64,000 nucleotides of DNA from an uncultured Clostridium sp. (GTDB lineage: Bacteria > Bacillota_I > Bacilli_A > RF39 > UBA660), in contig CANEGO010000001.1 of assembly GCA_947427095.1 (NCBI GenBank), positions 131,428-195,427 of the forward strand, read 5' to 3'. The stretch's first letter is position 1; every line of letters starts with the position of its first letter. This document shows, piece after piece, positions 975 to 56,207 of this stretch. Position numbers and translations under genes: made by a program. The notes under the pieces were generated by a model, which was not told where the DNA came from, ran no database searches, and saw only the letters and a program-made list of their open reading frames with translations.

Positions 975-1943
975 TTAATTATTGTCAATTTCATTTGTTA
1001 TTTCATCATGTTTTAATCCAGTACTTTTTTCAATTATATCAATAGATACGCCAGAGGCTAATAAATTTTTAGCAATTTCAGTTTGTTTAGTTCTTTTTCC
1101 TCTCTCAATTCCTTGTTCAATCCCTTGTTCGATTCCTTGTTTAATACCTTTTTCAATTCCCTTTTCAAATCCTTCAGTTGCTGCATGAGCTCTTATTCTA
1201 TCTCTTATAAACTTTTCTTGTTCTTCTACATCATAAATACCTTGTAGTTCTTCTTCTCTTGAAACTCTACTTATCTTTTCAGCCACTTTTTCCATCTCCT
1301 TACAACCTTTACTTGTTTTTGTAAGTTCTTCCTCATCATCTAGTGTCATTAATAACAATTCTTTTTCGAACTTATTTAACTTGTTATTATTATAATACAT
1401 TTTATTTATTCTTTTCAAGTTTATGTGGTATATTTCCACATCTGTATTATATACATAATCACTTCTAATAAGTCCTCTTTCTTCATCCATCATTCTAAAT
1501 TTTATCACTATTCTTTCATCAAATCTTTCAAAATCATCAAAATTTATCTGAATTAGTTTTTTCTGTTTTATATATTTATCTCCTTTACTTACTAATCCAT
1601 CTTTTATTTTATCTATATACCTATCATTCTTTTCAAACAATCCATTATAATAGTTTTTATTCATCTCTAAATTTATTATGTTTTCTTTTACTTCAATTAT
1701 TAAGTCAGTTGCTTTTTTCTTTTCGTTTTTTTCATCCTTCTTTAATTCAGTATTTTTAAATACTATATTGCCTTTTAAGTACTCTTTTTTTATTCCTGTT
1801 ATTCCGTTTATCAAATCAATTAAATACCCTTCCGATTCTTTATCCTGTAACACACTTTTAAATACTACGTCATACGTCATTGGTATTACCTTATTTTTTT
1901 CTTCAACCATGTATTTTTTCTCCCTTCCTTTGCATATTAACAT
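975..1943 (-). CDS. Rpn family recombination-promoting nuclease / putative transposase (PD-(D/E)XK)
   Basis: 322 aa. Its architecture and the C-terminal EKGIEKGIKQGIEQGIEQGIERG tandem repeat are typical of Rpn/YhgA-like (Transposase_31) proteins. Confidence 0.65.
   Translation of the reverse strand: MLICKGREKKYMVEEKNKVIPMTYDVVFKSVLQDKESEGYLIDLINGITGIKKEYLKGNIVFKNTELKKDEKNEKKKATDLIIEVKENIINLEMNKNYYNGLFEKNDRYIDKIKDGLVSKGDKYIKQKKLIQINFDDFERFDERIVIKFRMMDEERGLIRSDYVYNTDVEIYHINLKRINKMYYNNNKLNKFEKELLLMTLDDEEELTKTSKGCKEMEKVAEKISRVSREEELQGIYDVEEQEKFIRDRIRAHAATEGFEKGIEKGIKQGIEQGIEQGIERGKRTKQTEIAKNLLASGVSIDIIEKSTGLKHDEITNEIDNN
1105..1176. repeat. Tandem approximately 12-bp repeats inside the rpn-like gene (encoding the GIEQ/GIEK repeats)
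   Basis: Units tcaattccttgt / tcaatcccttgt / tcgattccttgt / ttaatacctttt / tcaattccctt are directly visible in tandem. Confidence 0.6.
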
Positions 1944-2904: not shown

Positions 2905-3375
2905 GTGATTAAAATGATTAAAATAATAGAAAAAGATTTATTAGAAGACCAATTCATAATAAAACCATTTACAAAAAATATTAGCTTAAATGAGACCATT
3001 TATTTTTCAAAAGATAACATATATTATTTTGGCAATTATAAAAAAGATGCAATTACGAAAATTAAAAACAAACTAATTAAAAATAAAAAAAGAATTATTA
3101 AGGCCGTTGAAAACGGCGTTAAATTTATCGTTTGTGGAAATAGTATCGATATGTTTAATAACACGTTCAATCACAGAGGGTTTAATTTATTTACTAGCTA
3201 TAATCCTAATAATTTCAAAAGAAAAATAAAAGGAATAAAAATAAAACAAAAATACAAGCATAATAAAATTAAAAAAGTAGATAGCATTAAAGAAGTAATA
3301 CCTAGTGAAAATTTTTTATATAAAAATTTTCTATGCATAAGAAACAAAAAAATTATAGAAAAAAAGCTTCTATAA
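2905..3375 (+). CDS. Hypothetical lysine-rich protein
   Basis: 156-aa ORF with an AGGGTGA RBS. Composition is AT-rich and lysine-rich, and no domain is recognised. Confidence 0.3.
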   Translation: MIKMIKIIEKDLLEDQFIIKPFTKNISLNETIYFSKDNIYYFGNYKKDAITKIKNKLIKNKKRIIKAVENGVKFIVCGNSIDMFNNTFNHRGFNLFTSYNPNNFKRKIKGIKIKQKYKHNKIKKVDSIKEVIPSENFLYKNFLCIRNKKIIEKKLL

Positions 3376-3383
3376 TTTTTATT

Positions 3384-4088
3384 CTAATTTGTTTTTTGTT
3401 TCCAATTAAAGCTATAAGAAACATCAGATGTTACTAAAAAGTCTTTTCCACGATCATTATAATCAAAAACGTTTCCTACAAATAGAAAATAAACAGACTG
3501 TTCGGGTTTAACAATTATATTTCCTGTTGAGTCATCAAAAACTTCAGCTAAATCTTCATCAGTAGTTGCTAATGTTCCATCAGCTTTTTCAACTCCTAAC
3601 GGAGCAAAAGAATATATGTTAATGTAACCCCCAATTTGACTATTTATATCATGACACTCATCAGCTTCTTCTATCTGTCCATTAGTCTGATCAATCTGCA
3701 TATTTGGTCCACCATCAATACAAGCTTTTCCAGAAGCAGTTATACCATCAGACATATTTAAAACGGCATCCATCGTCCCGGCATTGGTCATTTTAACCGT
3801 AAAATAACGTCTTGCTCCTGGATAATCAAAATCAACATTAAGAGAAACCGTATTATCAACTACTGTACAACTATCATTTTTATATCCACCTTCGGGATCC
3901 AATCCATTTTCCGATAAAGAACCAAATACTGGGTTAAATCCTGTACTACATGTCGCCGTAATATCAAATTCACCCTTAGCGGTAGCAGTACCATTTATGG
4001 TTATGGTATCTGAAAATATTGCATAACCTACCATCATGGTTACTGCAAGAGCTAGCACTCCTATTATTATTCCTTTTTTCTTATTCAT
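3384..4088 (-). CDS. Secreted protein with a SipW-cognate-class signal peptide (TasA/camelysin-like)
   Basis: The N-terminus MNKKKGIIIGVLALAVTMMVGYAIFSDT resembles the TasA/CalY-type signal region (AAFND-like motif). The mature part is Thr/Asn/Asp-rich. An AGGAG RBS is present. Confidence 0.45.
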   Translation of the reverse strand: MNKKKGIIIGVLALAVTMMVGYAIFSDTITINGTATAKGEFDITATCSTGFNPVFGSLSENGLDPEGGYKNDSCTVVDNTVSLNVDFDYPGARRYFTVKMTNAGTMDAVLNMSDGITASGKACIDGGPNMQIDQTNGQIEEADECHDINSQIGGYINIYSFAPLGVEKADGTLATTDEDLAEVFDDSTGNIIVKPEQSVYFLFVGNVFDYNDRGKDFLVTSDVSYSFNWKQKTN

Positions 4089-4119
4089 ACTTTTACTCCT
4101 ATCTTCCTATTATTTCTTG

Positions 4120-4152
4120 TTTATAATATCATATACCCCCCCCCGGTCAATA
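4120..4152 (-). promoter_or_regulatory. Candidate sigma-A-type promoter with a G9 homopolymer in the -35/-10 spacer
   Basis: Minus strand reads TTGACC-GGGGGGGGG-TATATGA-TATTAT. The -35 is TTGACC and the -10 is an extended TG-n-TATTAT with a 16-nt spacer. The poly-C on the plus strand is at 4136-4144, about 50 nt upstream of the start codon. Confidence 0.5.
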
Positions 4153-4184: not shown

Positions 4185-4772
4185 CTACTTTGTAATTTGC
4201 AACTTAAATGGAGATTTAAAATTAGTATCTGTTTTTTCTTTATACTCAAAAAGCATATTAAGTAAAAAGTATAAAACTAAAATTAAAATAACTATCTCTA
4301 ATACATTTATAACATTTTTTAATACTGGACTAATACCAGACTTCTTATCCTTTTGATAAGAACCACAAGATTTACAATAAGTATCAGTATCAAATATTTT
4401 TTCTCCGCAACAAGAACAATATTTATTACCAGTTAATACAATCTGTTTTATAACAGTTTTTTCTTTAACTTTAGTTTGAGCTACTTCTTGTTTTTGGTTA
4501 AGTTCATAGTTATCAAACTCAAATGGTTCATAGTCCTTTAGAGTTATAGCTTCCTTAGAAACGTTATTTAAAGAAAGAGAAAGTAAAACCTTAATAAGAA
4601 AATATAAAACAAAACCACCAATAGAAATGTATAGATAAATCCTTAAGTTAGATAAAATTTGAAGCATTGTTACCGAATTATTAATAACACGATAATTAAA
4701 CACGTTTATTAAGTATATTATCGCAGCACTTATTCCAATGCCAAGAGGAACAAACGTAAGCATTTTCTTCAA
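4185..4772 (-). CDS. Membrane protein with a zinc-ribbon (CxxC...CxxC) domain
   Basis: 195 aa. The CSCCGEKIFDTDTYCKSCGSY zinc ribbon is flanked by transmembrane segments. Confidence 0.45.
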   Translation of the reverse strand: MKKMLTFVPLGIGISAAIIYLINVFNYRVINNSVTMLQILSNLRIYLYISIGGFVLYFLIKVLLSLSLNNVSKEAITLKDYEPFEFDNYELNQKQEVAQTKVKEKTVIKQIVLTGNKYCSCCGEKIFDTDTYCKSCGSYQKDKKSGISPVLKNVINVLEIVILILVLYFLLNMLFEYKEKTDTNFKSPFKLQITK

Positions 4773-4854
4773 GGCTGAACACCTCCCTTAAAAAGTCCTT
4801 TTTAAATGTCTCTATTATAATCATTTTATGAAAAAAAGCAAGTTATTATTAAAC

Positions 4855-6438
4855 TTACTCTCTGTTTAAATATTCATCATAAGTGCACATTTTATCAACG
4901 TACTTACCATCTTCCTTAAATTCAATTATACGATTTGCAACACTATTTATAAGCTCATAATCATAAGAAGAAAATAAACATACACCCCTAAAGGTTTTCA
5001 TTCCTTTATTAAGAGATGTAATTGATTCTATATCCAAGTGATTAGTAGGCTCATCTAGTATTATAACGTTAGCTTTTTTTAACATCATACGAGAAAACAT
5101 CAATCTTACTTTTTCACCGCCAGAAAGTACTCCTACCTTTTTTAAAGCTTCCTCTCCAGAAAATAGCATTCTACCCAAAAATCCTCTTAAAAACGCTTCT
5201 TCTTGTTCCTTAGAATAAGGCCTTAAAAAATCTACTAAATTAACATCTTCTTTAAAATAATCATCATGATCCTTAGGAAAGTATGAATACGAAACGGTTG
5301 TTCCCCACTTAATCGTTCCACAGTCTGGCTCTAATTCTCCAGTTATAATTTTGAAAAGCGTAGTTTTAGCAAGTTCGTTTTTTCCAACAAAAGCTACTTT
5401 ATCGGTATTATTTATGGTTAAGTTTAAGTTTTTTAAAACTACTTCTCCACCAATCGTTTTACTAACACCTTTAAGTTCTAAAACATCACGGCCTAAGTCT
5501 CTATCAATATCAAAATTAATGTATGGATATTTTCTTGATGATGCTACCATATCATCAAGTTCTATTTTTTCTAAGAGTTTCTTTCTTGATGTAGCTTGTT
5601 TAGATTTAGATGCATTCGCACTAAACCTTCTAATAAATTCTTGTAACTCTTTTATCTTATCTTCTTTCTTTTTATTAGAATCCCTCATTTGCTTTTGAAT
5701 AAGTTCGCTTGATTCTAACCAGAAATCATAATTACCAACGTACATTTTAATCTTACCATAATCAATATCAAGTGTATGAGTACATACCTTATTTAAAAAG
5801 TGTCTATCATGCGAAACAACAATTACCGTGTTTTTAAAATCTAGCAAGAAGTTCTCAAGCCATATCTTGGCACTTATATCAAGATAGTTGGTTGGTTCAT
5901 CTAAAATTAATATGTCTGGGTTGCCAAATAAAGCTTGTGCAAGCAAAACCTTAACCTTATCTTCACCAGATAAGTTTTCCATTTTATCACTATAATATGC
6001 TCTATCAAGACCAATACCAGAAAGAAGAATCTCTGCATCAGCCTCAGCTTGCCATCCATCCATCTCAGCAAACTCTGCTTCTAATTCCCCTACTCTTAAC
6101 CCATCCTCATCATTAAAATCGGGTTTAGAATATATTTCTTCCTTTTCTTTCATTATGTTATAAAGTCTTTGATTTCCCATGATTACGGTTTCAACAACAC
6201 CCTTATCATCATAAGCATTATGATCTTGTTTTAGCACTGACATCCTATCATTGTCTGTTAAGATAACTTCTCCCGTTGTAGAATCAATTTCTTTTGACAG
6301 TACCTTTAAAAAAGTAGACTTTCCTGCTCCATTAGCACCAATTACCCCGTAACAATTACCAGCGGTAAACTTTAGATTCACGTCCTTGAATAAAGTTCTT
6401 TTTCCAAAAGTTAAACTAAGGTTATTTACTTGAAGCAT
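4855..6438 (-). CDS. ABC-F family ATP-binding cassette protein (two tandem ABC domains, translation-factor type)
   Basis: 527 aa with two Walker A motifs (GANGAGKST; the second is in the C-terminal half) and an inter-domain linker. Uup/EttA/YdiF-like. Confidence 0.85.
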   Translation of the reverse strand: MLQVNNLSLTFGKRTLFKDVNLKFTAGNCYGVIGANGAGKSTFLKVLSKEIDSTTGEVILTDNDRMSVLKQDHNAYDDKGVVETVIMGNQRLYNIMKEKEEIYSKPDFNDEDGLRVGELEAEFAEMDGWQAEADAEILLSGIGLDRAYYSDKMENLSGEDKVKVLLAQALFGNPDILILDEPTNYLDISAKIWLENFLLDFKNTVIVVSHDRHFLNKVCTHTLDIDYGKIKMYVGNYDFWLESSELIQKQMRDSNKKKEDKIKELQEFIRRFSANASKSKQATSRKKLLEKIELDDMVASSRKYPYINFDIDRDLGRDVLELKGVSKTIGGEVVLKNLNLTINNTDKVAFVGKNELAKTTLFKIITGELEPDCGTIKWGTTVSYSYFPKDHDDYFKEDVNLVDFLRPYSKEQEEAFLRGFLGRMLFSGEEALKKVGVLSGGEKVRLMFSRMMLKKANVIILDEPTNHLDIESITSLNKGMKTFRGVCLFSSYDYELINSVANRIIEFKEDGKYVDKMCTYDEYLNRE

Positions 6439-6522
6439 AAAATCACGTCCTTTTCTTATATAAGTTTACTAAAGAAAATAGTAAAAAGCAAGTAAGTAAA
6501 AAAATAGCTTTTAAAGGCTATT

Positions 6523-6846
6523 TTAATCATTATAATAATGAAGCGTTAATACCACATCTTTTCTATCTTTTTCTGATGATGAAAAACCATTTGGATCAAT
6601 ATATCTTTTAGATTGTAAAGAAGGTTTATCACCATTTAGTTTAATTAAACTTGGTTTGCGTTGTCCTTTATTACTACTAAGTAATGAAGCAATTACTTTT
6701 TCATCTTTTATTAAAACTAAATCACATAATAATCTTCTAATATAAAAATCTTTTAATTCCAAATTTGTGGGTAATCTATCCATAATATATTTATCCCTTC
6801 TTGTAAGCCTTATCATTAGACATGAATAGTTTTTCCATATCAACAT
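6523..6846 (-). CDS. Hypothetical protein (possibly the downstream half of a frameshifted gene)
   Basis: 107-aa ORF that overlaps the 6791-7015 ORF by 56 nt in a different frame. Confidence 0.3.
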   Translation of the reverse strand: MLIWKNYSCLMIRLTRRDKYIMDRLPTNLELKDFYIRRLLCDLVLIKDEKVIASLLSSNKGQRKPSLIKLNGDKPSLQSKRYIDPNGFSSSEKDRKDVVLTLHYYND

Positions 6847-7015
6847 ATGTCATTCTAGGTTTGATAACATAAGATTTTTCTAACTTAAGCAAAAAATCCT
6901 TTGTCAAAAGAAATGGTTTTAAATTTACAGTTTCATCTATTTTTTGTTCTTCATAAGATTTTAAAACCTTATTATATTTAGTTAACGTATCAGTCTCAAC
7001 AGCTTTTACTCTCAT
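6791..7015 (-). CDS. Hypothetical protein (possibly the upstream half of a frameshifted gene)
   Basis: 74-aa ORF that overlaps the next ORF. Confidence 0.3.
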   Translation of the reverse strand: MRVKAVETDTLTKYNKVLKSYEEQKIDETVNLKPFLLTKDFLLKLEKSYVIKPRMTYVDMEKLFMSNDKAYKKG

Positions 7016-7103
7016 AATTTATTGTGTTCCTTTCTTGAAATCATATTATAGCATAAAACAAAAGAAAAACAACCAACTATAATTAAATGAAGTAATTAAA
7101 GGT

Positions 7104-9134
7104 CTAAGAAAGAATTTTTGGAGCATTATAAATTATTAGTTCATGTTGGCACCTAGTAGCTACAACATAAAATAGATATCTTTCGTCTTTAGTATATTTA
7201 TTATCTTTATCAGTATAAGAAATCACCGAATCAAATTCTAAACCTTTCGCGAGGTAACTTGGAACAATTACTAAGTTTTTATTAAACTCTTTATCACTAT
7301 CTTCCATTAGACTTATACCTTCTATTTTATCTTTTAATTTATCATATAATTTTATTGCTTCATCTTTACTTTTAGTAATTATCGCAAGTGATGCATATTT
7401 TTCTTTTAAAGCGTTTATATCATTTTCTATTGCGTTCATATCATCTCTAAATTTAACTGGTACGTTATTTTCTCTTCTAATCGCACTAACGTACTTTAAA
7501 CCAAGTATTTTATTAGTGTATGCTATTATTTCACCAGAGGAACGATAAGTTTTATTTAGTTCAACGTACTTGCTATTTTCGTTTAATATATCTGTTAAAA
7601 CTTCTAAAGTATCATACTTTATATATGGATTAATCGTTTGGTTAACATCTCCTAGTATCGTAAATGATGCTTTTTTAAATATCTTACTTAGTATTATATA
7701 TTGCATTTCATTATAATCTTGCGCTTCATCAACAACTATTTGCCTAATTAAGTTACTGTATGGAAAACCATTTAATAATCCTTTTAAATATATAAAGCAT
7801 AATGCATCTTCATAATTAATTTCTTTTGTGTTAAGTTTTACTGTTTCTTCTTTACCATAAGCATTTATAAATGCTTTGCTTTTATATAAATCTTCATATA
7901 TTTTCTTAAAATCAGGTTTTATATTAAGCCTTTCTTTAATTTGTTTCATAAAGCTTCTTTTTCCTTTACCATAGCTAATTCCAGTTTTATCACATAAGTG
8001 TTCAGCCATTTTTTCTATTCTTTCAAATAGTGGTAATCTATCAAACTTATCTTTTAATAAATTATTTAAGTATTTCTTTTCTATAGTTTCTATCTTAAGT
8101 TCTATATCATCTGTTATTAAAATATTTTGCTTTATTTCTTTTGCATAATTATCTATTACATCTATCATCTTTTTAGATAATTTAAACTTAACAAATTCTG
8201 GTTTATTTTCTTTTCTATCGTAAAACCTTTCAATAAAATCAGTAAAAGTTTCTACCCTTTTAAATTCCTTAGCATAACTTATGGCAAAATCATGAAAAGT
8301 AGTTTCCCCAGTGTTTTCTTCTCCAAGCTCTGGAAGTACGTTTGATATATATTCTGAAAATACATTATTAGGTGAAAAAATAAGTACGTTAGATGATTTT
8401 AAATTCTTTATTTTATATAGCAAGAACGCTATTCTATGAAGTGCTACCGACGTTTTACCAGAGCCAGCAATTCCTTGAACTATTAAATGTTTATTTGATA
8501 TGTTTCTTATTATATCGTTTTGTTCCGATTGTATGGTGTTAACAATATTTTTCATTTTATCAGAGGATTTTTCTGATAATACTTCCTGAAGGCATTCATC
8601 AACTACGTTTAAATCATTATCAAACACTCTTAACAATTTATTATTTTCTATCTTATATTGCCTTCTAAGTGACATATACCCCTTTATTTCTCCATCAGGT
8701 GCCTCATACTTACAAGGTCCTACTGGATAATCATAAAACAAACTAGCAATTGGACTTCGCCAGTCATAAACAAAATAATGTAAATCTTTTTCTACGTTAG
8801 TTAAACCTATATAAACTTTTTTTACAGCTTCATCATCTTCTTTAAAATCAACTCTTCCAAAGTATGGTGAATACTGCACTTTTAAAAGCTTTTTATAACA
8901 CTCCATTTTCATAAGCATAAAGCCTGCTTCAAGTTCTGATGACATAAGACCGGTTTGCATTTCAACTTTATCTATGCTTCCTTTATCTTCCCACAAAACC
9001 TTTCTAAACTCAGTTAATTTACTTTCTTCAACGTGAATTTCTTTTCCCAAAACATCTATTTGATTAGATATTTCCTTTGATGCATTTCGTAAGTAGCCAT
9101 TTTCTTCCTTTAACTCTTTTTCGGTTAAAGCCAT
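7104..9134 (-). CDS. helD: HelD-like UvrD-family helicase (RNA polymerase recycling / DNA helicase IV-like)
   Basis: 676 aa. Walker A motif QGIAGSGKTSVALHRIAFLL. The long N-terminal domain before the helicase core is typical of HelD. Confidence 0.7.
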   Translation of the reverse strand: MALTEKELKEENGYLRNASKEISNQIDVLGKEIHVEESKLTEFRKVLWEDKGSIDKVEMQTGLMSSELEAGFMLMKMECYKKLLKVQYSPYFGRVDFKEDDEAVKKVYIGLTNVEKDLHYFVYDWRSPIASLFYDYPVGPCKYEAPDGEIKGYMSLRRQYKIENNKLLRVFDNDLNVVDECLQEVLSEKSSDKMKNIVNTIQSEQNDIIRNISNKHLIVQGIAGSGKTSVALHRIAFLLYKIKNLKSSNVLIFSPNNVFSEYISNVLPELGEENTGETTFHDFAISYAKEFKRVETFTDFIERFYDRKENKPEFVKFKLSKKMIDVIDNYAKEIKQNILITDDIELKIETIEKKYLNNLLKDKFDRLPLFERIEKMAEHLCDKTGISYGKGKRSFMKQIKERLNIKPDFKKIYEDLYKSKAFINAYGKEETVKLNTKEINYEDALCFIYLKGLLNGFPYSNLIRQIVVDEAQDYNEMQYIILSKIFKKASFTILGDVNQTINPYIKYDTLEVLTDILNENSKYVELNKTYRSSGEIIAYTNKILGLKYVSAIRRENNVPVKFRDDMNAIENDINALKEKYASLAIITKSKDEAIKLYDKLKDKIEGISLMEDSDKEFNKNLVIVPSYLAKGLEFDSVISYTDKDNKYTKDERYLFYVVATRCQHELIIYNAPKILS

Positions 9135-9159
9135 GATGTATCACTTCCTTTCTAACAAC

Positions 9160-9190
9160 GCAAAAAACCACATATTACTATGTGGTGGGT
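9160..9190 (-). terminator. Intrinsic terminator downstream of 9345-9713
   Basis: The minus strand has a ccacat-atgtgg hairpin followed by a T run. Confidence 0.4.
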
Positions 9191-9344
9191 ATATATATTT
9201 ACCCAATTTTTGCAAAAACGTCATCTTAATTATATATCATATTAAAATAAATGCAATATAAAAACTTACAATTATCTATCTTTTTTTACATTTTCTTTTA
9301 CTACGTATCCTGCTGTTTTTGTCGAACAATAAAAATACGGAACA

Positions 9345-20910: not shown

Positions 20911-21456
20911 TTACTTATTTTGTTTACTATTTATATACTTTTTATATTGTCTTTTACTTAACAGGCATTTTTTTACACCATCAGTTATATCTATCTGCCT
21001 ATCAGCATCATAATAGGTTATAACATCATCATTTTCACTTACTATTCTTTTATCATCTGGTCCTTTAATAGTAACAATAACATTGTTGTTCAAGTCCTCT
21101 ATTTGATCAACATCAATATGTTCTTCTTCACCAGTAATATCAAAATAAATACCTTTTTCATTTAAATAATCACATAATTCATTTAATTTTTTTGTGCTAG
21201 AAGACTTTCTGGCCAAATCATAAATACCAAGAAATATTTCTCCCCATGCAGCAACTCTAACTAAATAATGTACTATATTTATTATCTTATTATCGAAAAC
21301 GCCAAAATAAAATTTAACTAAACCTATACCAACATCACTTGCCCATAAGCTCCAAAACAATTTATTATTTTCTAAATTATTCAAACCAGCAACATTAGCA
21401 TAATTCTTAGTTAAAATACTTTTATTAAAATGTTTATATAACATATATTTTCTCAC
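20911..21456 (-). CDS. Hypothetical protein (paralog of 21527-22054)
   Basis: 181 aa. Its C-terminus KRQYKKYINSKQNK resembles the neighbour's KRQRKKYINSK. The upstream region is duplicated. Confidence 0.4.
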   Translation of the reverse strand: MRKYMLYKHFNKSILTKNYANVAGLNNLENNKLFWSLWASDVGIGLVKFYFGVFDNKIINIVHYLVRVAAWGEIFLGIYDLARKSSSTKKLNELCDYLNEKGIYFDITGEEEHIDVDQIEDLNNNVIVTIKGPDDKRIVSENDDVITYYDADRQIDITDGVKKCLLSKRQYKKYINSKQNK

Positions 21457-21526
21457 CTAAAACACTCCTTTTTCATTTGAATATGTATTATTTTAACATA
21501 TACTCACTTCGTCAAGTTTTTTATTA

Positions 21527-22054
21527 TTATTTACTATTTATATACTTTTTTCTTTGCCTTTTTGTAAGCGTAACATCATTTATTATATCTGTTACATCAA
21601 TAAAATTATCTTGATCTATAAAGACTGTTTCAATATCAGACATCTTAGTAATAACTCCTTTACCTAAAAGTAAGTTTGTTGTTTTAACATCATCACCCAC
21701 TTGTTCTTTAATTAAAAAAGCATGTAACAAATCCTCTTTTGTTATGTCTATATTAATATCATTTAATCTTTTAACTATTTCATCAAGTTTTTTTCTTGAA
21801 CTTACTACGTTTTTCATATCATTAATTCCATAAAAAGCTTGACTTGTCATAATACCCACAAGTCCAATTCTTAATATATTAGCAAATAAATTATCCTCGA
21901 AGTTAAAAATTTGTTGAGCACCAGTAAGTGTCCAATAAGATAAAATTGATGCCCAATTAATTTTTGGATTTTGACTATGATTCTCAAAATTAGCATAATC
22001 AACAATTCTTCCTAATCTATCCATTCCATTTTCGTATAATTTATATTTTTTCAT
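21527..22054 (-). CDS. Hypothetical protein (paralog of 20911-21456)
   Basis: 175 aa. Shared C-terminal motif and shared upstream region. Confidence 0.4.
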   Translation of the reverse strand: MKKYKLYENGMDRLGRIVDYANFENHSQNPKINWASILSYWTLTGAQQIFNFEDNLFANILRIGLVGIMTSQAFYGINDMKNVVSSRKKLDEIVKRLNDINIDITKEDLLHAFLIKEQVGDDVKTTNLLLGKGVITKMSDIETVFIDQDNFIDVTDIINDVTLTKRQRKKYINSK

Positions 22055-22087
22055 TCAAATTTTCCCCCTTTTTCATTTGAATGTGCA

Positions 22088-22118
22088 TTATTTTAACATA
22101 TAACCCCCCCCCGTCAAG
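22088..22118 (-). promoter_or_regulatory. Candidate promoter with a G9 homopolymer in the spacer
   Basis: Minus strand reads TTGACG-GGGGGGGG-TTATATGT-TAAAAT (extended TGn -10). The poly-C on the plus strand is at 22104-22112, about 50 nt upstream of the 21527-22054 start. Confidence 0.5.
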
Positions 22119-22143
22119 TTTTTTTGACATGTGGAAAAACACA

Positions 22144-22176
22144 AATAAAGTGCACATTAATTGTGCACTTTATTTT
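22144..22176. terminator. Perfect palindromic hairpin (aaagtgcaca-ttaa-ttgtgcactt)
   Basis: A 10-bp stem flanked by A and T runs, lying between leuS and the paralog pair. Confidence 0.45.
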
Positions 22177-25111: not shown

Positions 25112-25385
25112 TTAAATAAAAAAAGTTCATCCTAAATAAAGGATGAACTTTCGTCCACGGTACCACCTTAATTTATACATAATTTATGTATACACTTAAT
25201 AATCCATAACGAGATAAACCGTACTATATTACTATTATTTCACATAATAACTCCGAAGCTAGTTCACTTAGTACGCTTTGTTTATTCCCACCAAACATAA
25301 ACTCTCTTTAAAAGCATATCTAACTTAATACTCTTCATCAACGTTTTAATACTTATAGTATATTATTTTAATTAATAAAAATCAA
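25112..25385 (-). promoter_or_regulatory. T-box riboswitch leader controlling the membrane protein-leuS operon (probable Leu specifier)
   Basis: The minus strand contains an AGAGAG stem I element and a candidate specifier CUA-A. It also has the T-box sequence AAGGUGGUACCGUGGACGAAAG overlapping a terminator hairpin (aaagttcatcc-tttattt-aggatgaacttt) followed by a U7 run. Confidence 0.6.
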
Positions 25386-34299: not shown

Positions 34300-34470
34300 A
34301 ATTCTCCTTTTTAATGCATAATAAAAATAACTGTGTGAAATACTCCTCTGTTATAATCTTTATTTTATATTTTAAAAGTATTTCTTACGAGTAACAAACC
34401 CGCCTGAGTATCCGCCGAACATTTCGATAACCCAGAACCTCGTCACCCATTTAAGGGTCTGGCGCTAGAA
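34300..34470 (-). ncRNA. glmS ribozyme (GlcN6P-responsive) in the glmS 5' UTR
   Basis: The minus strand carries the ribozyme motifs: cleavage-site A-GCGCCAGA, GACGAGG, UUAUCGAAA and UUCGGCGGAU, in the canonical order upstream of glmS. Confidence 0.7.
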
Positions 34471-34567
34471 TAAAAAGTAATCCTCCAAGTACTTTTTTAT
34501 CTTTATGCATTATATTATACGAAAAAAAGAAAGTTTGTGCAACCTTCTTTTGGACCGTAACTTTTCA

Positions 34568-43980: not shown

Positions 43981-44212
43981 TCTTAACTCGAAGAGTTCGA
44001 GCAAATTTCACTATGGAGCCTTAACGATACACGTATGCGAAAAATTATACTCCCAAGATTGATTAAATCAACTGATAATTAAATTATAGCAGATATTCCA
44101 ATTATTTCAAGTGGGAGTATGGAAAAAAATGCCTAAATATGTTATTATTATAGTAGATTTGTATCATTAAAATTATGATACTTTTTATTTTAGAAAAATT
44201 AAGGAGGATGTT

Positions 44213-45025
44213 ATGGAAACAGTAAATGGATATTTAACTTCAATACAATCAGATTTATATGTAAATGGTACAGAAAAAGATAGTATTAAGACATCTATAG
44301 ATGCAATATGTACTAGACTAGGTTATTACTTTGGAAATTCAGAACATAATATTCATAAAATTATTAAGAAAGATATCTTTGGTTCTTATAGTAGAGACAC
44401 TATGCTTTCAAGAAAGTACGATGAAGATTCGGATATTGACTTAATGATTATTTTTGAAGATGCTAATGAATATACACCGCAAACTTGCTTAAATTGGCTA
44501 AAAGAATTTGCTGATTATTGGTATCCAAATTCATTAGTAAAACAATCTTTACCAACAATAGTTATTGAATTACAAAATATAAAATTTGAATTAGTACCAG
44601 CATATAAAAATGATTATAACAATTTATATATAGCAAAAGACAGTTCAAATTGGCAATATACTAATCCTAAAGATTTAAACGATAGGATGGTTAAATTAAA
44701 TTCAAATACTAATTTTGAATTTAAAAGAATGATAAGAACAATCAAATATTGGAATGTTAAAAAGAATTATAGAAGATATAAATCATATTTTTTAGAAAAA
44801 TATTTAACAGAAAAGTTTGAAACTTCTTATATACATTGTAAAAATCAATTTGATTATTTAGATTGGGCTTTCTATCATTTAGGACATTATGATGCCAATG
44901 ATGACTATATAAGTAGTAGAATAAAATCTGCTCAGTCAAATATTACGGATGCTCAAAATTATGAAAAAAATTGCGACTATGATTCTGCAGTGAAATGTAT
45001 AAAAAAAATAATTCCAGAGACATAA
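44213..45025 (+). CDS. Pol-beta-superfamily nucleotidyltransferase, SMODS-like (candidate second-messenger synthase)
   Basis: 270 aa. Strong AAGGAGG RBS. Active-site pattern GSYSRDT...DEDSDIDL (GS-x10-DxD) plus a downstream acidic residue. Confidence 0.45.
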   Translation: METVNGYLTSIQSDLYVNGTEKDSIKTSIDAICTRLGYYFGNSEHNIHKIIKKDIFGSYSRDTMLSRKYDEDSDIDLMIIFEDANEYTPQTCLNWLKEFADYWYPNSLVKQSLPTIVIELQNIKFELVPAYKNDYNNLYIAKDSSNWQYTNPKDLNDRMVKLNSNTNFEFKRMIRTIKYWNVKKNYRRYKSYFLEKYLTEKFETSYIHCKNQFDYLDWAFYHLGHYDANDDYISSRIKSAQSNITDAQNYEKNCDYDSAVKCIKKIIPET

Positions 45026-45035
45026 GAGGTATTGT

Positions 45036-45812
45036 ATGGAAAATGAAAGAAAAGATGAAGTTCAAGAACTTTACGATAGATGCAATAGAATTTCAAAGTA
45101 TGCAGATTGGTTGTTTTTAATTAATATAGTGATTTCATTTATATTAATATTTGATTTTAAATATAGAGATATACTTATTATTATAAGTTTAATATTAACT
45201 ATTATATATGTTGTATTAGTAAATATAAATGAAATCTATTTTAATAATCTAGCAGAAAATGAAAGAAGGAAATCCCTTTTAAAAGAGTCTTTTGATGTTA
45301 ATACTACTTTAAGAGAAACAAATAAGTATTACAATAATGAAGCTGAACCATCTATTAAAAAACTTGGTCTAAATTGTTATGAAAGTGCTTTTTTTACAAA
45401 AAGAGTAGTAGATAAAATGCTTCCCAGAAATATTATTAAAATTGTTATATTTACTATAATATATATTGTTTTAATGATGAAATTAGAAAATATGGATTTA
45501 TTATTAGTAATTACACAAACATTATTTTCGGCTGAAATTATATTTTCATTTATAAAATTATGTTATTATAAATTCCAATTAGATAAAGTTTGTAACGAAT
45601 TTCAAAATATATTTCTTATAATAGGCTTAAAAAATAAGGATGTGAATGTTTTAATTTTAGATGCTACTATGGATTATGAATGCTTAAAAAACTACTGCAA
45701 GATTTCAACGTCAAGTAAAATATTTTTTGACAATAACAAGAAATGGTCAAAAGATTGGCAAAAATTGTTAAGTAAAATTAGGAAAAAATCGGAGAGGGAT
45801 AATAATGAATAA
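45036..45812 (+). CDS. Four-TM membrane protein (S-4TM-like candidate effector)
   Basis: 258 aa. Four predicted TM helices (WLFLINIVISFILIF, ILIIISLILTIIYVVLV, IIKIVIFTIIYIVLMM, LLLVITQTLFSAEIIFSFI). It lies 10 nt downstream of the NTase. Confidence 0.45.
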   Translation: MENERKDEVQELYDRCNRISKYADWLFLINIVISFILIFDFKYRDILIIISLILTIIYVVLVNINEIYFNNLAENERRKSLLKESFDVNTTLRETNKYYNNEAEPSIKKLGLNCYESAFFTKRVVDKMLPRNIIKIVIFTIIYIVLMMKLENMDLLLVITQTLFSAEIIFSFIKLCYYKFQLDKVCNEFQNIFLIIGLKNKDVNVLILDATMDYECLKNYCKISTSSKIFFDNNKKWSKDWQKLLSKIRKKSERDNNE

Positions 45813-46434
45813 AAAAATTGAAAATGCTATAAAATACTATAAGTTATGTACTAAACTAAAAGATACAATTAGGACAGGTCCTATTGTTTGGAATGCCAAA
45901 AGAGAAAGAATCGAAAGTGTTGCAGAACACATATATGGAGTTCAAATGTTAGCATTAGCTATTTATTATCAATTTGGATACAAATTAGATATTATGAAAG
46001 TTATTTATATGTTAGCAATCCATGAACTAGAAGAAATAGAAATTGGTGATTTAGCATTTTTTGAAACTACAAGAGAAGAAAAACTCGTTAAAGGCAAGGA
46101 AGCAACAGATTATATACTAAAAGATTTTCTTGGAAAAGATGAAATATCGGCATTATTAGATGAGTATAATGAAAGAACTACAGAAGAATCTAAATTTGCT
46201 TATAATTGTGATAAATTAGAATGTGATATTCAAATGAAACTGTATGATCAAGAAGGATGTTTTGATTTAAATAATCAGCCTAATAACCCAATCCTCAATA
46301 ATCCTAGTGTTAAAAAAGTATTGGATAGTGAAAAAAGCATATCTAATGCCTGGATTGAATTTGATAGAAGCAAGTATGAAGATGATAAAAACTTTATTGA
46401 AATTGTTGACTATTTAAAAGAAAAAGAAATATAA
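45805..46434 (+). CDS. HD-domain phosphohydrolase (YfbR-like 5'-deoxynucleotidase family)
   Basis: 209 aa. HD motif ESVAEHIYGVQMLALAI...AIHELEEIEIGD. Overlaps the upstream gene by 8 nt. Confidence 0.55.
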   Translation: MNKKIENAIKYYKLCTKLKDTIRTGPIVWNAKRERIESVAEHIYGVQMLALAIYYQFGYKLDIMKVIYMLAIHELEEIEIGDLAFFETTREEKLVKGKEATDYILKDFLGKDEISALLDEYNERTTEESKFAYNCDKLECDIQMKLYDQEGCFDLNNQPNNPILNNPSVKKVLDSEKSISNAWIEFDRSKYEDDKNFIEIVDYLKEKEI

Positions 46435-46451
46435 ATTAGGAGGCTAAAATT

Positions 46452-47258
46452 ATGCAAAAATTAATTATGTTAGGAACAGGACACGGCTTTGTCTATAATT
46501 GTTATAATACCTGCTTTCTGTTGCAAAATGATAATGAATACTTTTTAGTTGATACTGGAGGCAGTGCTCATATAGTACAGAATCTTGAAAAATTAAATAT
46601 AAGTTTAAATAAAATACATAACATTTTTATTTCCCATAGCCATACAGATCATATTTTAGGATTATTTTGGCTATTAAAACGAATAACTGGAATGGTTCGT
46701 TCTAAGAAGTATGATGGAAATTTAAATGTTTATTGTAATGATGAAGTAGCAAATGCTATTAAAAATATTTATCCTTATTTATTTCCAGATGTTTATGGTG
46801 AAGTGATAGATAAATATTTAAATATAGTAGTTTTAAATAATAATGAAACAAGGAAAATTACTAATAGAGAATATACTTTTTTTGATGTAATGGCAAGTAA
46901 AAATAAATTATATGGATTTGAAACAATTCTTGATAATAATAAAAAATTAGTATTTCTTGGTGATGAAACTTGTAATCCGTTGTTGTATGATAGAATCAAA
47001 AATAGTGATTATGTAATGCATGAGGCGTTTTGCTTGGATAGTGAGCAAGATATATTTAAACCTTACGAAAAAAAGCATTCAACTGTGAAATCAGTATGTG
47101 AGAATTTTACAAACTTAAATATTAGAAATTTAATTTTATATCATACAGAAGATACACATTTAGAAAACAGAAAAGGATTATATATAAAAGAGGCTCAAGA
47201 ATATTTTAATGGTAATGTTATAGTACCAAATGATTTAGAAATAATCGACTTAGATTAA
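46452..47258 (+). CDS. MBL-fold metallo-hydrolase
   Basis: 268 aa. HSHTDH (HxHxDH) motif and an MLGTGHG N-terminus. Confidence 0.7.
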   Translation: MQKLIMLGTGHGFVYNCYNTCFLLQNDNEYFLVDTGGSAHIVQNLEKLNISLNKIHNIFISHSHTDHILGLFWLLKRITGMVRSKKYDGNLNVYCNDEVANAIKNIYPYLFPDVYGEVIDKYLNIVVLNNNETRKITNREYTFFDVMASKNKLYGFETILDNNKKLVFLGDETCNPLLYDRIKNSDYVMHEAFCLDSEQDIFKPYEKKHSTVKSVCENFTNLNIRNLILYHTEDTHLENRKGLYIKEAQEYFNGNVIVPNDLEIIDLD

Positions 47259-47273
47259 GGAGATGTTTAAAAT

Positions 47274-48035
47274 ATGGATTCAAACAATAAAGTTAATAAT
47301 TATGATAAGTTTGCTGAAAAAAGACATTATGAGGTTAAAAATGGAATGAAAAAGTCATTAAGATTTGTAGAAAAACCTATGATGACATCAATGCTACCAA
47401 ATTTAGAAGGCAAAAGAATTCTTATGTTAGGATGTGGCACTGCCGAAGAAAGTGAGTTATTAAGTAGATATAATCCTAAAAAGATAACTGGAATTGATAT
47501 ATCAGAAAAATCTATTCAAGTTGCTAAAGAAAGTTATCCAAATTGTGATTTTTATGTTGGTGATATGTTAAGCCTTCCATTTAAAGATAATGAATTTGAC
47601 TTTATTTTTAGTAGTTTAGCAATTAGTCATGTTGAAGATAAAAACAAAGTCTTTAAAGAATTATATAGAGTTTTGGATAATGAAGGACAATTATTATTTT
47701 CAGTTGGTCATCCAATGAGATTTGCTACTGAAAAAATTGATTATAATGATACTTCATATCATGTTATTGGATTTGAGGCTGGTAATGATGGTAATCATAT
47801 ATTAGGAAATTATATGTCTCATACAAAGCAGGTAAATTATTTTAAAGATAATGAAGTATTAGAAGAATTCATTGCTCCACCATCATATTTTTTTGAGGCA
47901 CTTATGAAAAATAATTTTGTAGTTGAGAACTTTAAAGAATCTAGATGTATTGATGAATGTAAAGAAGTAGATGAAGCCTATTACAATAGATTTCACGAAC
48001 TACCACAATTTATGGCATTTTTGGCAAAAAAATAA
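47274..48035 (+). CDS. Class I SAM-dependent methyltransferase (type 11)
   Basis: 253 aa. SAM-binding motif I ILMLGCGTAEES and motif post-I GIDISE. Confidence 0.7.
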   Translation: MDSNNKVNNYDKFAEKRHYEVKNGMKKSLRFVEKPMMTSMLPNLEGKRILMLGCGTAEESELLSRYNPKKITGIDISEKSIQVAKESYPNCDFYVGDMLSLPFKDNEFDFIFSSLAISHVEDKNKVFKELYRVLDNEGQLLFSVGHPMRFATEKIDYNDTSYHVIGFEAGNDGNHILGNYMSHTKQVNYFKDNEVLEEFIAPPSYFFEALMKNNFVVENFKESRCIDECKEVDEAYYNRFHELPQFMAFLAKK

Positions 48036-48050
48036 AAGACAATGGCTAGG

Positions 48051-49355: not shown

Positions 49356-49421
49356 AATTAAGGTTTAGCCTTTCTTTTTTAGTGGTGGGAGTACCAGCAC
49401 GTTGCTCGCTTATAGACAACA

Positions 49422-49775
49422 TCATACATATACCAACTCTTTTAAGATAATTTCTTCTGCACAGTCTTTATAATTATTCATCAATTCCACCCATTCAATT
49501 TGATTATTTGCTTTACTTTTTTCAGTTAGTTTTTCATCATTTTTAATATAATTATCCATTAAAATTTTAAGTCTATCTTCACATTCATTACTGACTGAAA
49601 CAAGATGATTTGTTAATTCATCTTGCATAAGAAGGGTCGTATATAGACCTTTATTATGCTCTTTTAGATAATTTAATCTCAAATATCCATACTTGTTAAT
49701 TCTTTCATAATTTTGATTTTTTATAGTTAGATTTGGTAATAAATAATCTCCAACTTTTGTATAATTTAATTTCAT
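49422..49775 (-). CDS. TnpV-like small protein
   Basis: 117 aa. Its size and its position next to the large serine recombinase match TnpV of Tn4451/Tn4453-type elements. This is recalled from family knowledge and has not been searched. Confidence 0.4.
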   Translation of the reverse strand: MKLNYTKVGDYLLPNLTIKNQNYERINKYGYLRLNYLKEHNKGLYTTLLMQDELTNHLVSVSNECEDRLKILMDNYIKNDEKLTEKSKANNQIEWVELMNNYKDCAEEIILKELVYV

Positions 49776-49778
49776 TTT

Positions 49779-51924
<2,146 letters not shown>

Positions 51925-52005
51925 TCACATAACAAGGACACCTAGAATATATTGATTTTTACACGACAAAATAAATCAATATAGTGGGAGTATGTAACTC
52001 ACCAA

Positions 52006-52278: not shown

Positions 52279-52385
52279 ACCACATCACACCTTTCTTGAC
52301 TAGACCTTTTTAGTCGACAAAAAAATCAATCATATTTCAGATTGATTTAATCATTAACGTCACTTGGTGCGACGATTTTACCTTT

Positions 52386-52429
52386 TGGAGCAAGTGATGG
52401 GAATCGAACCCACGTCTCAGCCTTGGCAA
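52386..52429 (-). repeat. 44-bp direct repeat identical to the 3' end of tRNA-Gly (island att repeat, partial tRNA)
   Basis: Positions 52386-52429 are identical to 56208-56251 (tggagcaagtgatgggaatcgaacccacgtctcagccttggcaa). Confidence 0.75.
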
Positions 52430-56200: not shown

Positions 56201-56207
56201 TTTGCTA

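What the first reader, a model, noticed from the sequence alone, without database searches (positions are those of the whole stretch)
4120..4152. G9 homopolymer inside the -35/-10 spacer of the promoter of a TasA/camelysin-like secreted protein gene
A run of 9 G residues (poly-C on the plus strand, 4136-4144) sits exactly between a TTGACC -35 element and an extended TG-n-TATTAT -10 element, about 50 nt upstream of the 3384-4088 start codon. In a genome that is about 28% GC a 9-nt G/C run is very unlikely by chance. The same architecture recurs at 22088-22118. Homopolymeric tracts in promoter spacers are the classical slipped-strand-mispairing mechanism of phase variation: the tract length sets the -35/-10 spacing and therefore promoter strength. 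The regulated gene encodes a surface or secreted TasA/camelysin-like protein with a SipW-cognate signal peptide, which is the typical kind of target.
Basis: partly seen in the sequence, partly recalled or inferred. Interest (0 to 1): 0.75.

Follow-up and report, generated by a model that had tools for sequence, protein, structure and literature searches.

The report
Phase-variable poly-G promoter for secreted protein
A run of nine G's sits between the two recognition boxes of a promoter for a secreted protein; its length differs between strains of this uncultured gut bacterium and the design recurs in relatives, so it is most likely a classical slippage on/off switch, seen here in a new lineage and gene family.

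Summary
The window (28% GC) has exactly two G/C runs longer than 5 nt. Both are G9 on the minus strand, and both fill the spacer of a near-consensus promoter, TTGAC(C)-G9-(T)TATATGnTAnnAT, with a 16-bp spacer.

The tract behaves as hypermutable. At the second locus, 12 independent assemblies with otherwise near-identical flanks carry G7, G8, G9 (x8) or G10 (x2). That tract is the only real indel in 4.4 kb. A 76%-identical ortholog has G11.

The same cassette occurs 43 times in a scan of 185,579 species genomes, where about 1 is expected by chance. Most hits are in uncultured low-GC gut Firmicute MAGs, with up to 13 per MAG and six in tandem in one array. Most lie in front of paralogs of the 234-aa protein.

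Cassettes without a G tract have exactly 17-bp spacers. One of them is identical across 9 assemblies.

I conclude that this is a slipped-strand phase-variable promoter of the porA/fetA/vlp type. For locus 1 itself the evidence is indirect, and no expression data exist.

The "TasA/camelysin-like, SipW-cognate" label is only weakly supported: the N-terminal motif fits and the fold is a beta-sandwich, but every match is below threshold and no signal peptidase gene was found nearby.

The mechanism is known. The lineage, the cassette and the target family appear to be undescribed.

The parts
4145..4150 (-). -35 hexamer TTGACC of the locus-1 promoter
   Evidence: Read directly from the sequence and reported by the consensus scan. 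TTGAC directly precedes the G tract in every homologous cassette.
4136..4144 (-). G9 homopolymer (C9 on the plus strand) filling the upstream part of the spacer; the proposed slippage site
   Evidence: One of only two G/C runs longer than 5 nt in 64 kb. Homologous cassettes carry G7-G12.
4123..4135 (-). TATATGA + TATTAT: a Gram-positive type -16 region (TRTG) with TGn extended -10 and the -10 hexamer (4128-4123)
   Evidence: TATATGaTATTATAAACA is the consensus of 49 non-redundant low-GC cassettes.
4089..4122 (-). Short 5' leader with Shine-Dalgarno AGGAG at 4096-4100
   Evidence: Read directly from the sequence. Homologous leaders in the CASEKZ01 MAG are near-identical among paralogs.
3384..4088 (-). 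234-aa secreted beta-sandwich protein. The N-terminus is MNKKKGIIIG...VGYAIFSDTITINGTATAKGEFD. It belongs to a fast-evolving, unnamed family.
   Evidence: The ORF is. 78 homologs, none named and none sharing a Pfam family (one has a lone PF18998 hit). Family alignment. Structure model with pLDDT 88. 21 of 37 ORFs downstream of cassettes fall in this family.
3347..3380 (-). AT-rich hairpin AAAAATTATAGAA / TTCTATAATTTTT followed by a T run, directly after the stop codon; a probable terminator, which would make the gene monocistronic
   Evidence: Read directly from the sequence. The terminator scan did not call it because the stem has too few G-C pairs. This is an inference.
22090..22117 (-). Second poly-G promoter: TTGAC-G9 (22104-22112)-TTATATGT-TAAAAT
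   Evidence: Tract length is 7-10 in 12 other assemblies, and it is the only real indel in 4.4 kb. An ortholog has G11 with a 17-bp spacer.
21527..22054 (-). 175-aa orphan protein downstream of the second poly-G promoter
   Evidence: No Pfam or NCBIfam hit. Only 4 homolog clusters in 5.8 billion proteins.
21487..21515 (-). Paralogous promoter without a G tract (TTGACGAAGTGAGTATATGTTAAAATAAT) in front of the 181-aa paralog at 20911-21456
   Evidence: The two proteins are 32% identical.
22143..22175 (-). Terminator-like hairpin of the upstream leuS gene, showing that the second promoter starts a new transcription unit

Best explanation
The G9 run is a hypermutable homopolymer placed in the spacer of a sigma-A type promoter. 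The promoter has an A-rich upstream stretch, a -35 of TTGACC, the G tract, a TATG -16 region and a -10 of TATTAT.

Slipped-strand mispairing during replication adds or removes G's. That changes the -35/-10 distance in 1-bp steps: G9 gives 16 bp, G10 gives 17 bp and G8 gives 15 bp. Each step also changes the rotational alignment of the two boxes. Promoter strength, and so transcription of the monocistronic gene 3384-4088, would then switch stochastically and heritably between strong, weak and off states.

The gene encodes a secreted beta-sandwich protein with a TasA-superfamily-like N-terminal signal and donor-strand motif. In related genomes this protein belongs to a multigene family in which each copy has its own poly-G promoter. 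The likely result is combinatorial variation of a surface or matrix component in a spore-forming gut commensal.

Shown here:
- the position of the tract;
- its non-random occurrence;
- its conservation across genomes;
- length polymorphism at orthologous sites;
- the stability and 17-bp spacing of tract-less versions.

Inferred, not shown:
- that length changes alter transcription;
- which lengths are ON;
- that switching is fast and reversible within a clone;
- what the protein does.
For: 1. Only two G/C runs exceed 5 nt in 64 kb, where 0.002 runs of 9 or more are expected. Both lie between TTGAC and TATATGnTAnnAT.

2. Locus 2 was compared across 12 independent assemblies that are 99.1-99.6% identical to the window. 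They carry G7 x1, G8 x1, G9 x8 and G10 x2. An alignment of 10 of them spanning the tract has 78 substitution columns, and the tract is the only genuine indel. Ten A7/A8/T7 runs in the same region do not vary.

3. An ortholog with 76% protein identity keeps a tract, G11, in a diverged promoter with exactly a 17-bp spacer.

4. The pattern TTGAC-N0-1-G7+-N0-6-TATATGNTANNAT matches 43 times in 41 stretches of 596 Gb of genomes. About 1 match is expected under uniform base composition. Hits are concentrated in low-GC gut MAGs: 13 tract-bearing promoters in CASEKZ01, 9 in CANQHF01 (including 6 in tandem about 820 bp apart), and 4 in the window's 95.6%-identical relative CAYOWI01.

5. In the low-GC loci fetched in that scan, every G run of 7 or more follows TTGAC within 0-3 nt.

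6. Tract-bearing cassettes have spacers of 15-19 bp: 15 (8 cases), 16 (26), 17 (12), 18 (2) and 19 (1). The tract-less promoters with the identical -10 region that the metagenome pattern matched all have 17 bp. A family gene with a decayed tract (CATTGTGGGG, 17 bp) is identical in length in 9 assemblies.

7. In human-gut metagenomes, promoters with the same flanks differ only in tract length: G6/G7/G7/G9/G9 at one locus and G9/G9/G10/G11 at another.

8. 21 of 37 downstream ORFs belong to one family of signal-bearing secreted proteins. This is the usual class of target.

9. The mechanism is established for fetA and porA in Neisseria (PMC5320596).
Against: - For locus 1 itself there is no clean allele series. 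The exact protein and its neighbours are absent from the assembly collection. A locus-specific metagenome scan found nothing.
- The commonest length, G9, gives a sub-optimal 16-bp spacer. A human-gut lineage mostly has 19-20 bp, and one locus is G10 in four samples. So the tract might serve another purpose, or most copies are simply OFF.
- Length calls come from assemblies, not reads. Some are low-coverage metagenomes, and G9-G10 runs are error-prone.
- No transcription start site or expression data are available.
- Whether the organism has mismatch repair is unknown.
Confidence: 0.75

Rival explanations
1. The G tract is a fixed cis-element. It could be the binding site of a regulator, or a stiff A-form-like spacer that tunes RNA polymerase contacts. 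It would then be conserved for its sequence rather than its mutability, and the length differences would be incidental.
For: - G9 is strongly modal across species and paralogs.
- G is on the sense strand in every tract found in the fetched low-GC loci.
- Many copies sit at non-optimal spacings of 16 or 19-20 bp. One locus has G10 in four metagenomes.
- The whole cassette, including the upstream A-rich stretch and the AAACA after the -10, is conserved.
Against: - Length varies at orthologous sites while the flanks stay constant.
- Tracts decay by substitution with no conserved G pattern (GGGGTGGGG, GATGTGGGG, CATTGTGGGG).
- Functional-looking cassettes exist with unrelated 17-bp spacers.
Confidence: 0.12
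2. The conserved cassette (promoter plus leader plus signal-peptide coding region) is mainly a portable or recombinogenic module. Divergent surface-protein genes would be exchanged or duplicated through it, and the G tract would be a passenger.
For: - Homology between the window and its 95.6% relative ends at the stop codon of the upstream gene (window 4186). About 435 nt of unrelated sequence follow in the relative, and then a different cassette allele.
- The window's 234-aa allele has no match above 66% identity.
- Many contigs end at the cassette.
- Paralogs in CASEKZ01 share near-identical promoter-to-signal-peptide stretches but have divergent mature parts.
Against: - It does not explain why a homopolymer, rather than any other sequence, is kept in the spacer.
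- It does not explain why the tract length varies on its own.
- It is compatible with the phase-variation model rather than an alternative to it.
Confidence: 0.08
3. The tract is genetically stable, and the observed length differences are sequencing or assembly errors at a difficult homopolymer.
For: - G9-G10 runs have raised indel error rates on short-read platforms.
- Several assemblies are low-coverage metagenomes.
- Assemblies break at the tract.
Against: - The differences span four lengths, 7 to 10. They occur within and between sequencing projects (SRR279999xx: G10, G9, G9; SRR100900xx: G9, G8, G9).
- Contigs are consensus sequences.
- No indels occur at ten A/T runs of 7-8 nt.
- Cross-species conservation of a tract with different lengths (G7-G12) cannot be an artefact.
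Confidence: 0.05

Closest known systems
Neisseria porA (poly-G), fetA/frpB and opc (poly-C) promoters
   Same: A homopolymeric G/C tract of about 9-14 nt sits between the -35 and -10 boxes. Its length sets the spacer length and so the transcription level of a surface protein gene, and it varies between strains (PMC5320596; van der Ende 1995 and Carson 2000 are cited there; opc is added from my own knowledge).
   Different: - The host is a Gram-positive, spore-forming gut Firmicute rather than a proteobacterial pathogen.
- The promoter has a TRTG -16 region.
- The cassette is copied to many genes per genome and is conserved across genera.
- The target is a secreted beta-sandwich protein, not an outer-membrane porin.
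Mycoplasma hyorhinis vlp family (poly-A tract in the promoter spacer) (from my own knowledge: Yogev et al. 1991; Citti and Wise 1995)
   Same: A multigene family in which each paralog has a highly conserved promoter, leader and signal-peptide region containing a homopolymer in the -35/-10 spacer. A divergent mature part follows. The result is combinatorial on/off surface variation. The arrays in L042 and the 13 copies in CASEKZ01 look like this.
   Different: - The tract is poly-G rather than poly-A.
- The proteins have no lipobox cysteine, so they are not lipoproteins.
- The organism has a cell wall and spores.
- Only one family member lies in this window.
TasA / camelysin (Pfam PF12389) and the wider TasA superfamily (AbpA, AbpX, TafE)
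   Same: - The N-terminus has a basic stretch, a hydrophobic stretch and then GYA|xFSD. If cleavage follows A23, there is an aromatic residue at mature position 2 and an acidic one at position 4, as described for TasA-superfamily donor strands (bioRxiv 10.64898/2026.01.04.697558).
- The core is a beta-sandwich.
- The family profile weakly matches AbpX (E 0.017).
- The most conserved segment, residues 21-41, is the least confidently folded part of the monomer model. That is expected of a donor strand.
   Different: - No match reaches a curated threshold.
- hhalign against TasA gives a probability of 1%.
- No dedicated signal peptidase gene was found nearby.

Membership tests
Slipped-strand phase-variable promoter (homopolymer in the -35/-10 spacer) | A homopolymeric tract of about 7 nt or more lies between recognisable -35 and -10 elements | tested here: met
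   TTGACC-G9-TATATGA-TATTAT at 4150-4123, and the same design at 22117-22090.
Slipped-strand phase-variable promoter (homopolymer in the -35/-10 spacer) | Tract length is polymorphic between strains or assemblies while the flanks are conserved | tested here: met
   Locus 2 carries G7, G8, G9 or G10 in 12 assemblies, and the tract is the only real indel in 4.4 kb. Locus 1 has weaker support: G9 here, G8 in a 95.6% relative with a different allele, and one contig that ends inside the run.
Slipped-strand phase-variable promoter (homopolymer in the -35/-10 spacer) | High-frequency, reversible length change within a clonal population | not testable with these tools
   No reads or cultures are available. 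This needs read pile-ups or colony lineages.
Slipped-strand phase-variable promoter (homopolymer in the -35/-10 spacer) | Transcription level depends on tract length | not testable with these tools
   The only support is indirect. The tract-less promoters with the identical -10 region matched by the metagenome pattern all have 17-bp spacers, while tract-bearing ones range over 14-21 bp.
TasA/camelysin family (Pfam PF12389 Peptidase_M73) | Match to the family model at or above the gathering score | tested here: not met
   The window protein scores E 1.1 and 9.4 bits against a cut-off of 22.5, over residues 6-46 only. Six of 40 family members hit the model, the best at E 0.014. NCBIfam gives no hit at E up to 1.
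TasA superfamily (TasA, AbpA, AbpX, TafE) | Jelly-roll or beta-sandwich core structurally similar to TasA or Abp protomers | tested here: inconclusive
TasA superfamily (TasA, AbpA, AbpX, TafE) | N-terminal signal followed by a donor strand with an aromatic residue at mature position 2 and an acidic one at position 4 | tested here: inconclusive
   G21, Y22, A23 and F25 are invariant, S26 is nearly so, and D/E is usual at position 27. This fits if cleavage follows A23, but the cleavage site was not predicted with any tool.
TasA superfamily (TasA, AbpA, AbpX, TafE) | Co-located dedicated signal peptidase I (SipW-like) | tested here: not met
   No SPase I box-B motif occurs in any frame of the window or in suitably sized ORFs of the fetched loci. 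This was a crude motif test, and the rest of the genome was not seen.
Mycoplasma vlp-type variable surface lipoprotein families | Lipoprotein signal peptide with a lipobox cysteine | tested here: not met
   No cysteine occurs in the first ~45 residues of the window protein or of the family consensus. The system works like vlp but is not a member.
Mycoplasma vlp-type variable surface lipoprotein families | Several paralogs per genome, each with its own conserved homopolymer-bearing promoter | tested here: met
   This is met in related genomes: 13 in CASEKZ01 and six in tandem in L042. The window itself holds one family member.

The most novel reading that the evidence does not exclude
The two tracts in this window may be samples of a lineage-wide set of phase-variable genes.

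In this reading, one portable promoter cassette (A-rich upstream stretch, TTGAC, Gn, TATG extended -10, conserved leader) has been copied in front of dozens of genes per genome in uncultured spore-forming gut Firmicutes. Most of these genes would encode a previously undescribed, fast-evolving branch of TasA-superfamily-like fibre or matrix proteins. Each copy would switch independently.

The same poly-G spacer design also turns up in front of secreted proteins in unrelated gut phyla (Kiritimatiellae, Lachnospiraceae and Patescibacteria MAGs). That would make it a general and overlooked mode of surface variation in the gut microbiota, alongside invertible promoters.
Probability: 0.45. Interest if true: 0.7.

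Novelty: new member of a known kind. Interest (0 to 1): 0.6.

Why it matters
Phase variation in gut commensals is known mainly from invertible promoters in Bacteroides and from Clostridioides. Homopolymer-spacer switches are textbook for Neisseria, Bordetella and Mycoplasma. As far as five literature searches could show, they have not been described for uncultured gut Firmicutes or for TasA-like proteins.

If the switch is real, three consequences follow.
- These organisms continuously vary a secreted or surface protein repertoire, which bears on immune (IgA) and phage evasion and on aggregation.
- The conserved cassette gives a simple sequence signature for finding phase-variable genes in metagenomes.
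- The cassette explains recurrent assembly breaks and strain-variable islands in these MAGs.

Tried and rejected
- **Plasmid origin.** Megablast of 5-kb pieces around both loci against plasmids found nothing. The window is chromosomal: it carries leuS with a T-box, glmS with its ribozyme, tRNAs and a Ger operon.
- **Exact-protein look-ups for locus 1.** The 234-aa protein, YebC and ABC-F are not on record. The upstream zinc-ribbon protein gave two short contigs that stop at or before the tract.
- **Locus-1 metagenome scan.** A scan specific to this locus gave 0 hits.
- **SipW-like peptidase.** A motif search in the window and in the fetched loci found nothing convincing.
- **G-quadruplex.** I considered this and rejected it, because a single G run cannot form an intramolecular quadruplex.
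- **Alternative -10 hexamer.** TATAAA, 3 nt downstream, would give 17 bp at G7. It is possible but less likely than the TG-extended TATTAT, because tract-less cassettes place TATTAT at exactly 17 bp.

Full report
**Observation**

On the minus strand the sequence at 4150-4123 reads TTGACC GGGGGGGGG TATATGA TATTAT. A 34-nt leader follows, with AGGAG at 4100-4096 and the ATG of ORF 3384-4088 at 4088. The consensus scan lists it as TTGACC-16-TATTAT with TG before the -10.

A second site at 22117-22090 reads TTGAC GGGGGGGGG TTATATGT TAAAAT, listed as TTGACG-16-TAAAAT with TG. It lies 35 nt upstream of ORF 21527-22054 and just downstream of the leuS terminator hairpin.

The window is 27.9% G+C. Apart from these two 9-nt runs, no G or C run exceeds 5 nt, and 0.002 runs of 9 or more are expected from composition.

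**Context**

The window is chromosomal DNA of a low-GC, spore-forming Firmicute. It carries leuS behind a T-box, glmS behind its ribozyme, three tRNAs, Mur-ligase and Ddl-like genes, and a GerA/GerC/GerB operon. There is no match among plasmids.

The nearest genome found is a MAG (CAYOWI01, isolate SRP287540_co1_447). It is 95.6% identical over window 4186-9302.

Gene 3384-4088 is followed directly by a 13-bp AT-rich hairpin and a T run. It therefore looks monocistronic.

**Is the tract hypermutable?**

Exact-protein look-ups recovered the second locus from twelve other independent assemblies of public sequencing runs. The ten recovered through the exact 175- and 181-aa proteins are 99.1-99.6% identical to the window. 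Their tracts are G7 (1), G8 (1), G9 (8) and G10 (2).

In a multiple alignment of 4.4 kb that includes ten of these assemblies spanning the tract, there are 78 substitution columns. The tract is the only genuine indel, and ten A/T runs of 7-8 nt do not vary.

An ortholog with 76% protein identity has a diverged promoter that still contains a tract: TTGACAT-G11-TATGT-TATCAT, with a 17-bp spacer.

For the first locus the evidence is thinner.
- The 234-aa protein and its neighbours are not on record elsewhere.
- One assembly that shares the upstream gene ends inside a run of at least 9 G.
- In the 95.6% relative, homology to the window ends at the stop codon of the upstream gene. About 435 nt of unrelated sequence follow, and then a different allele of the cassette with G8.
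- A locus-specific metagenome scan found nothing.

**The cassette elsewhere**

I scanned one genome for each of 185,579 species with the pattern TTGAC-N0-1-G7-N0-6-TATATGNTANNAT. It gave 43 matches in 41 stretches. About 1 is expected under uniform composition (22 fixed bases, 14 gap combinations, two strands, 596 Gb).

Most matches are in 25-32% GC gut MAGs from rabbit, mouse, chicken and human. These are labelled uncultured Bacilli, Ca. Aphodocola, Clostridium sp. CAG:594 or Mollicutes, and some are evidently mislabelled.
- One MAG (CASEKZ01) has 13 tract-bearing promoters.
- CANQHF01 has 9. Six of these are G9 promoters about 820 bp apart, inside an array of eight paralogous ~215-aa genes.
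- The window's close relative has 4.

In the low-GC loci fetched in that scan, every G run of 7 or more lies within 0-3 nt of TTGAC, with G on the sense strand. The consensus of 49 non-redundant cassettes is an A-rich stretch, TTGAC, Gn, then TATATGaTATTATAAACAtg. Tract lengths run from 7 to 12, with a mode of 9.

A few matches come from 46-58% GC MAGs of other phyla (Kiritimatiellae, Lachnospiraceae, Clostridia, Patescibacteria). Several of these also precede signal-bearing proteins.

**A natural control**

A second scan did not require G's: TTGAC-N6-15-TATATGATATTATAAACA in metagenome contigs. It gave 31 hits.
- The three with ordinary spacers all have exactly 17 bp.
- Interrupted tracts give 16, 17 or 19 bp.
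- Pure tracts give 12-21 bp.

Across the genome-scan loci, tract-bearing cassettes have spacers of 15 (8), 16 (26), 17 (12), 18 (2) and 19 (1) bp.

A family gene whose tract has decayed to CATTGTGGGG (17 bp) has a spacer of the same sequence and length in nine independent assemblies.

In human-gut contigs, promoters with the same flanks differ only in the tract: G6/G7/G7/G9/G9 at one locus and G9/G9/G10/G11 at another.

So 17 bp is the spacing used when the spacer is ordinary sequence. Length variation is a property of the tract.

In this window G9 gives 16 bp at both loci, and G10 would give 17. Which states are on, weak or off cannot be read from sequence. Many copies, especially those at 19-20 bp in the human-gut lineage, are probably off in the majority population. 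That is usual for multigene phase-variable families, but it is also the main point in favour of a rival role for the tract.

**The regulated genes**

Of 37 ORFs downstream of cassettes, 21 fall into one family that includes the window's 234-aa protein. The human-gut set adds 380-945-aa proteins with the same type of N-terminus.

The family has 78 detectable members. None is named, and none shares a Pfam family (one has a lone PF18998 hit). The best match is 66% identical.

Its alignment shows three features:
- an invariant N-terminal block, with a basic stretch, a hydrophobic stretch and then GYAxFS(D/E)..I.GTA.A.G.F;
- a conserved YPGA.RYFT.K.TN.G(T/S)I motif;
- variable loops.

The AlphaFold model (pLDDT 88) is an N-terminal helix followed by a beta-sandwich. 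The most conserved segment, residues 21-41, is modelled with the lowest confidence.

The resemblance to TasA/camelysin is real but below threshold.
- Pfam Peptidase_M73 is the family most often hit, by 6 of 40 members. The best is E 0.014, the window protein scores E 1.1, and the match covers the N-terminal 40 residues only.
- The profile weakly matches AbpX, a TasA-superfamily fibre protein (E 0.017).
- Foldseek finds nothing.
- hhalign against TasA aligns the PG...N.G motif at 1% probability.

No signal peptidase gene was found in the window or in the fetched loci. I therefore treat the protein as a secreted beta-sandwich protein that is possibly a distant TasA-superfamily member. It is not established as one.

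The second tract controls a 175-aa orphan protein with only four homolog clusters. A 32%-identical paralog follows it. Its promoter is clearly homologous but has GAAGTGAG in place of the tract. In some strains only one copy is present.

**Mechanism and comparison**

The best-supported explanation is slipped-strand mispairing in the G tract. This changes the -35/-10 spacing and so the promoter strength. The mechanism is established for Neisseria porA and fetA (PMC5320596). From my own knowledge it also applies to opc and to the Mycoplasma hyorhinis vlp family.

The organisation in related genomes works like vlp: many paralogs, each with a near-identical promoter, leader and signal region and a divergent mature part. 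The proteins are not lipoproteins, however.

Three rivals are ranked below this model because the length varies while the flanks do not, because decayed tracts show no conserved G pattern, and because tract-less cassettes exist.
- The tract is a fixed cis-element.
- The cassette is mainly a recombination module.
- The length differences are sequencing artefacts.

The recombination idea is compatible with phase variation, and the allele replacement at locus 1 supports it.

**Novelty**

The mechanism is classical. Five literature searches found no description of poly-G spacer promoters in uncultured gut Firmicutes or in front of TasA-like genes. I rate this a new member of a known kind, and of moderate to good interest because of the scale and conservation of the cassette.

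**Limits**

All length data come from assemblies. No reads, transcription start sites or expression data were available. The taxonomy of the organism rests on MAG labels. Only 64 kb of this genome was seen.

Noticed in passing
window 20911-22117 (minus strand): Two tandem paralogs (175 aa and 181 aa, 32% identical) have homologous promoters and leaders. Only the upstream copy carries the G tract; the downstream one has GAAGTGAG in its place. Some strains (L098-L100) have a single copy followed directly by the alpha/beta hydrolase, Mur-ligase-like and Ddl-like genes.
   Followed up: partly
window 4186 / L037 5119-5595 (CAYOWI010000008.1): Homology between the window and its 95.6%-identical relative stops at the stop codon of the zinc-ribbon gene. 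The relative has about 435 nt of unrelated sequence and then a different cassette allele (G8, TATATGCTATTAT). The locus is a strain-variable island. Part of the inserted sequence (ttagttgtctacttttagtttaccac) recurs in the intergenic region between family genes in L088.
   Followed up: partly
L042 1100-7700 (CANQHF010000027.1): An array of eight paralogous ~215-aa genes (MEKNKSSKIIAI...LSLGFAAFS...LTIKSSAEV). Six of them are preceded by their own TTGACCC-G9 promoter, spaced about 820 bp apart.
   Followed up: partly
L057-L087 (human gut metagenome contigs): A separate lineage uses TTGACA-CCC/TCC-G6..G11-TATATGATATTATAAACA, mostly with 19-20 bp spacers. These sit in front of 380-945-aa proteins with the same type of N-terminal signal. 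Decayed tracts keep the 19-bp length (GGGGTGGGG, GATGTGGGG, GGTGGGGAG). It is not explained why the commonest length is so far from 17 bp.
   Followed up: partly
L015, L016, L020, L022, L023, L026, L031, L046, L047: The same TTGAC-Gn-TATATGnTAnnAT design occurs in 46-58% GC MAGs of other phyla (Kiritimatiellae x2, Lachnospiraceae x2 on one contig, Clostridia, Patescibacteria x2). Several of these precede signal-bearing proteins. One (L022, G12) precedes a protein with a classic TasA-like signal, GSTFALFTSES.
   Followed up: no
L018, L030, L037, L038, L048, L051 (CAYOWI01, CAYVPV01): These MAGs are labelled 'uncultured Muribaculaceae' in the records. They have 27-30% GC and are close relatives of this spore-forming Firmicute window, so the taxonomic labels look wrong.
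   Followed up: no
window 44000-56400: A probable integrated mobile element next to tRNA-Gly and tRNA-Cys (56208-56361). It has a large serine recombinase (50008-51879) and a MobA/VirD2-type relaxase (48051-49355), and its GC skew is opposite to its surroundings.
   Followed up: no
window 975-1943 (minus strand); L002 2-220: A PD-(D/E)XK family transposase gene lies near locus 1. In some assemblies an rve-type integrase fragment lies directly upstream of locus 2. Short-read contigs of this organism often end at such repeats or at the promoter cassette.
   Followed up: no
window 2905-3375 (plus strand): A 156-aa GTG-start ORF lies between yebC and the 234-aa gene. It has no family match and is possibly not a gene. 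The 590-bp stretch is otherwise unassigned.
   Followed up: no
window 25136-25350 and 34328-34477 (minus strand): A T-box leader lies upstream of a 139-aa ORF and leuS. A glmS ribozyme lies upstream of glmS. Both are ordinary features and confirm the chromosomal Firmicute context.
   Followed up: no
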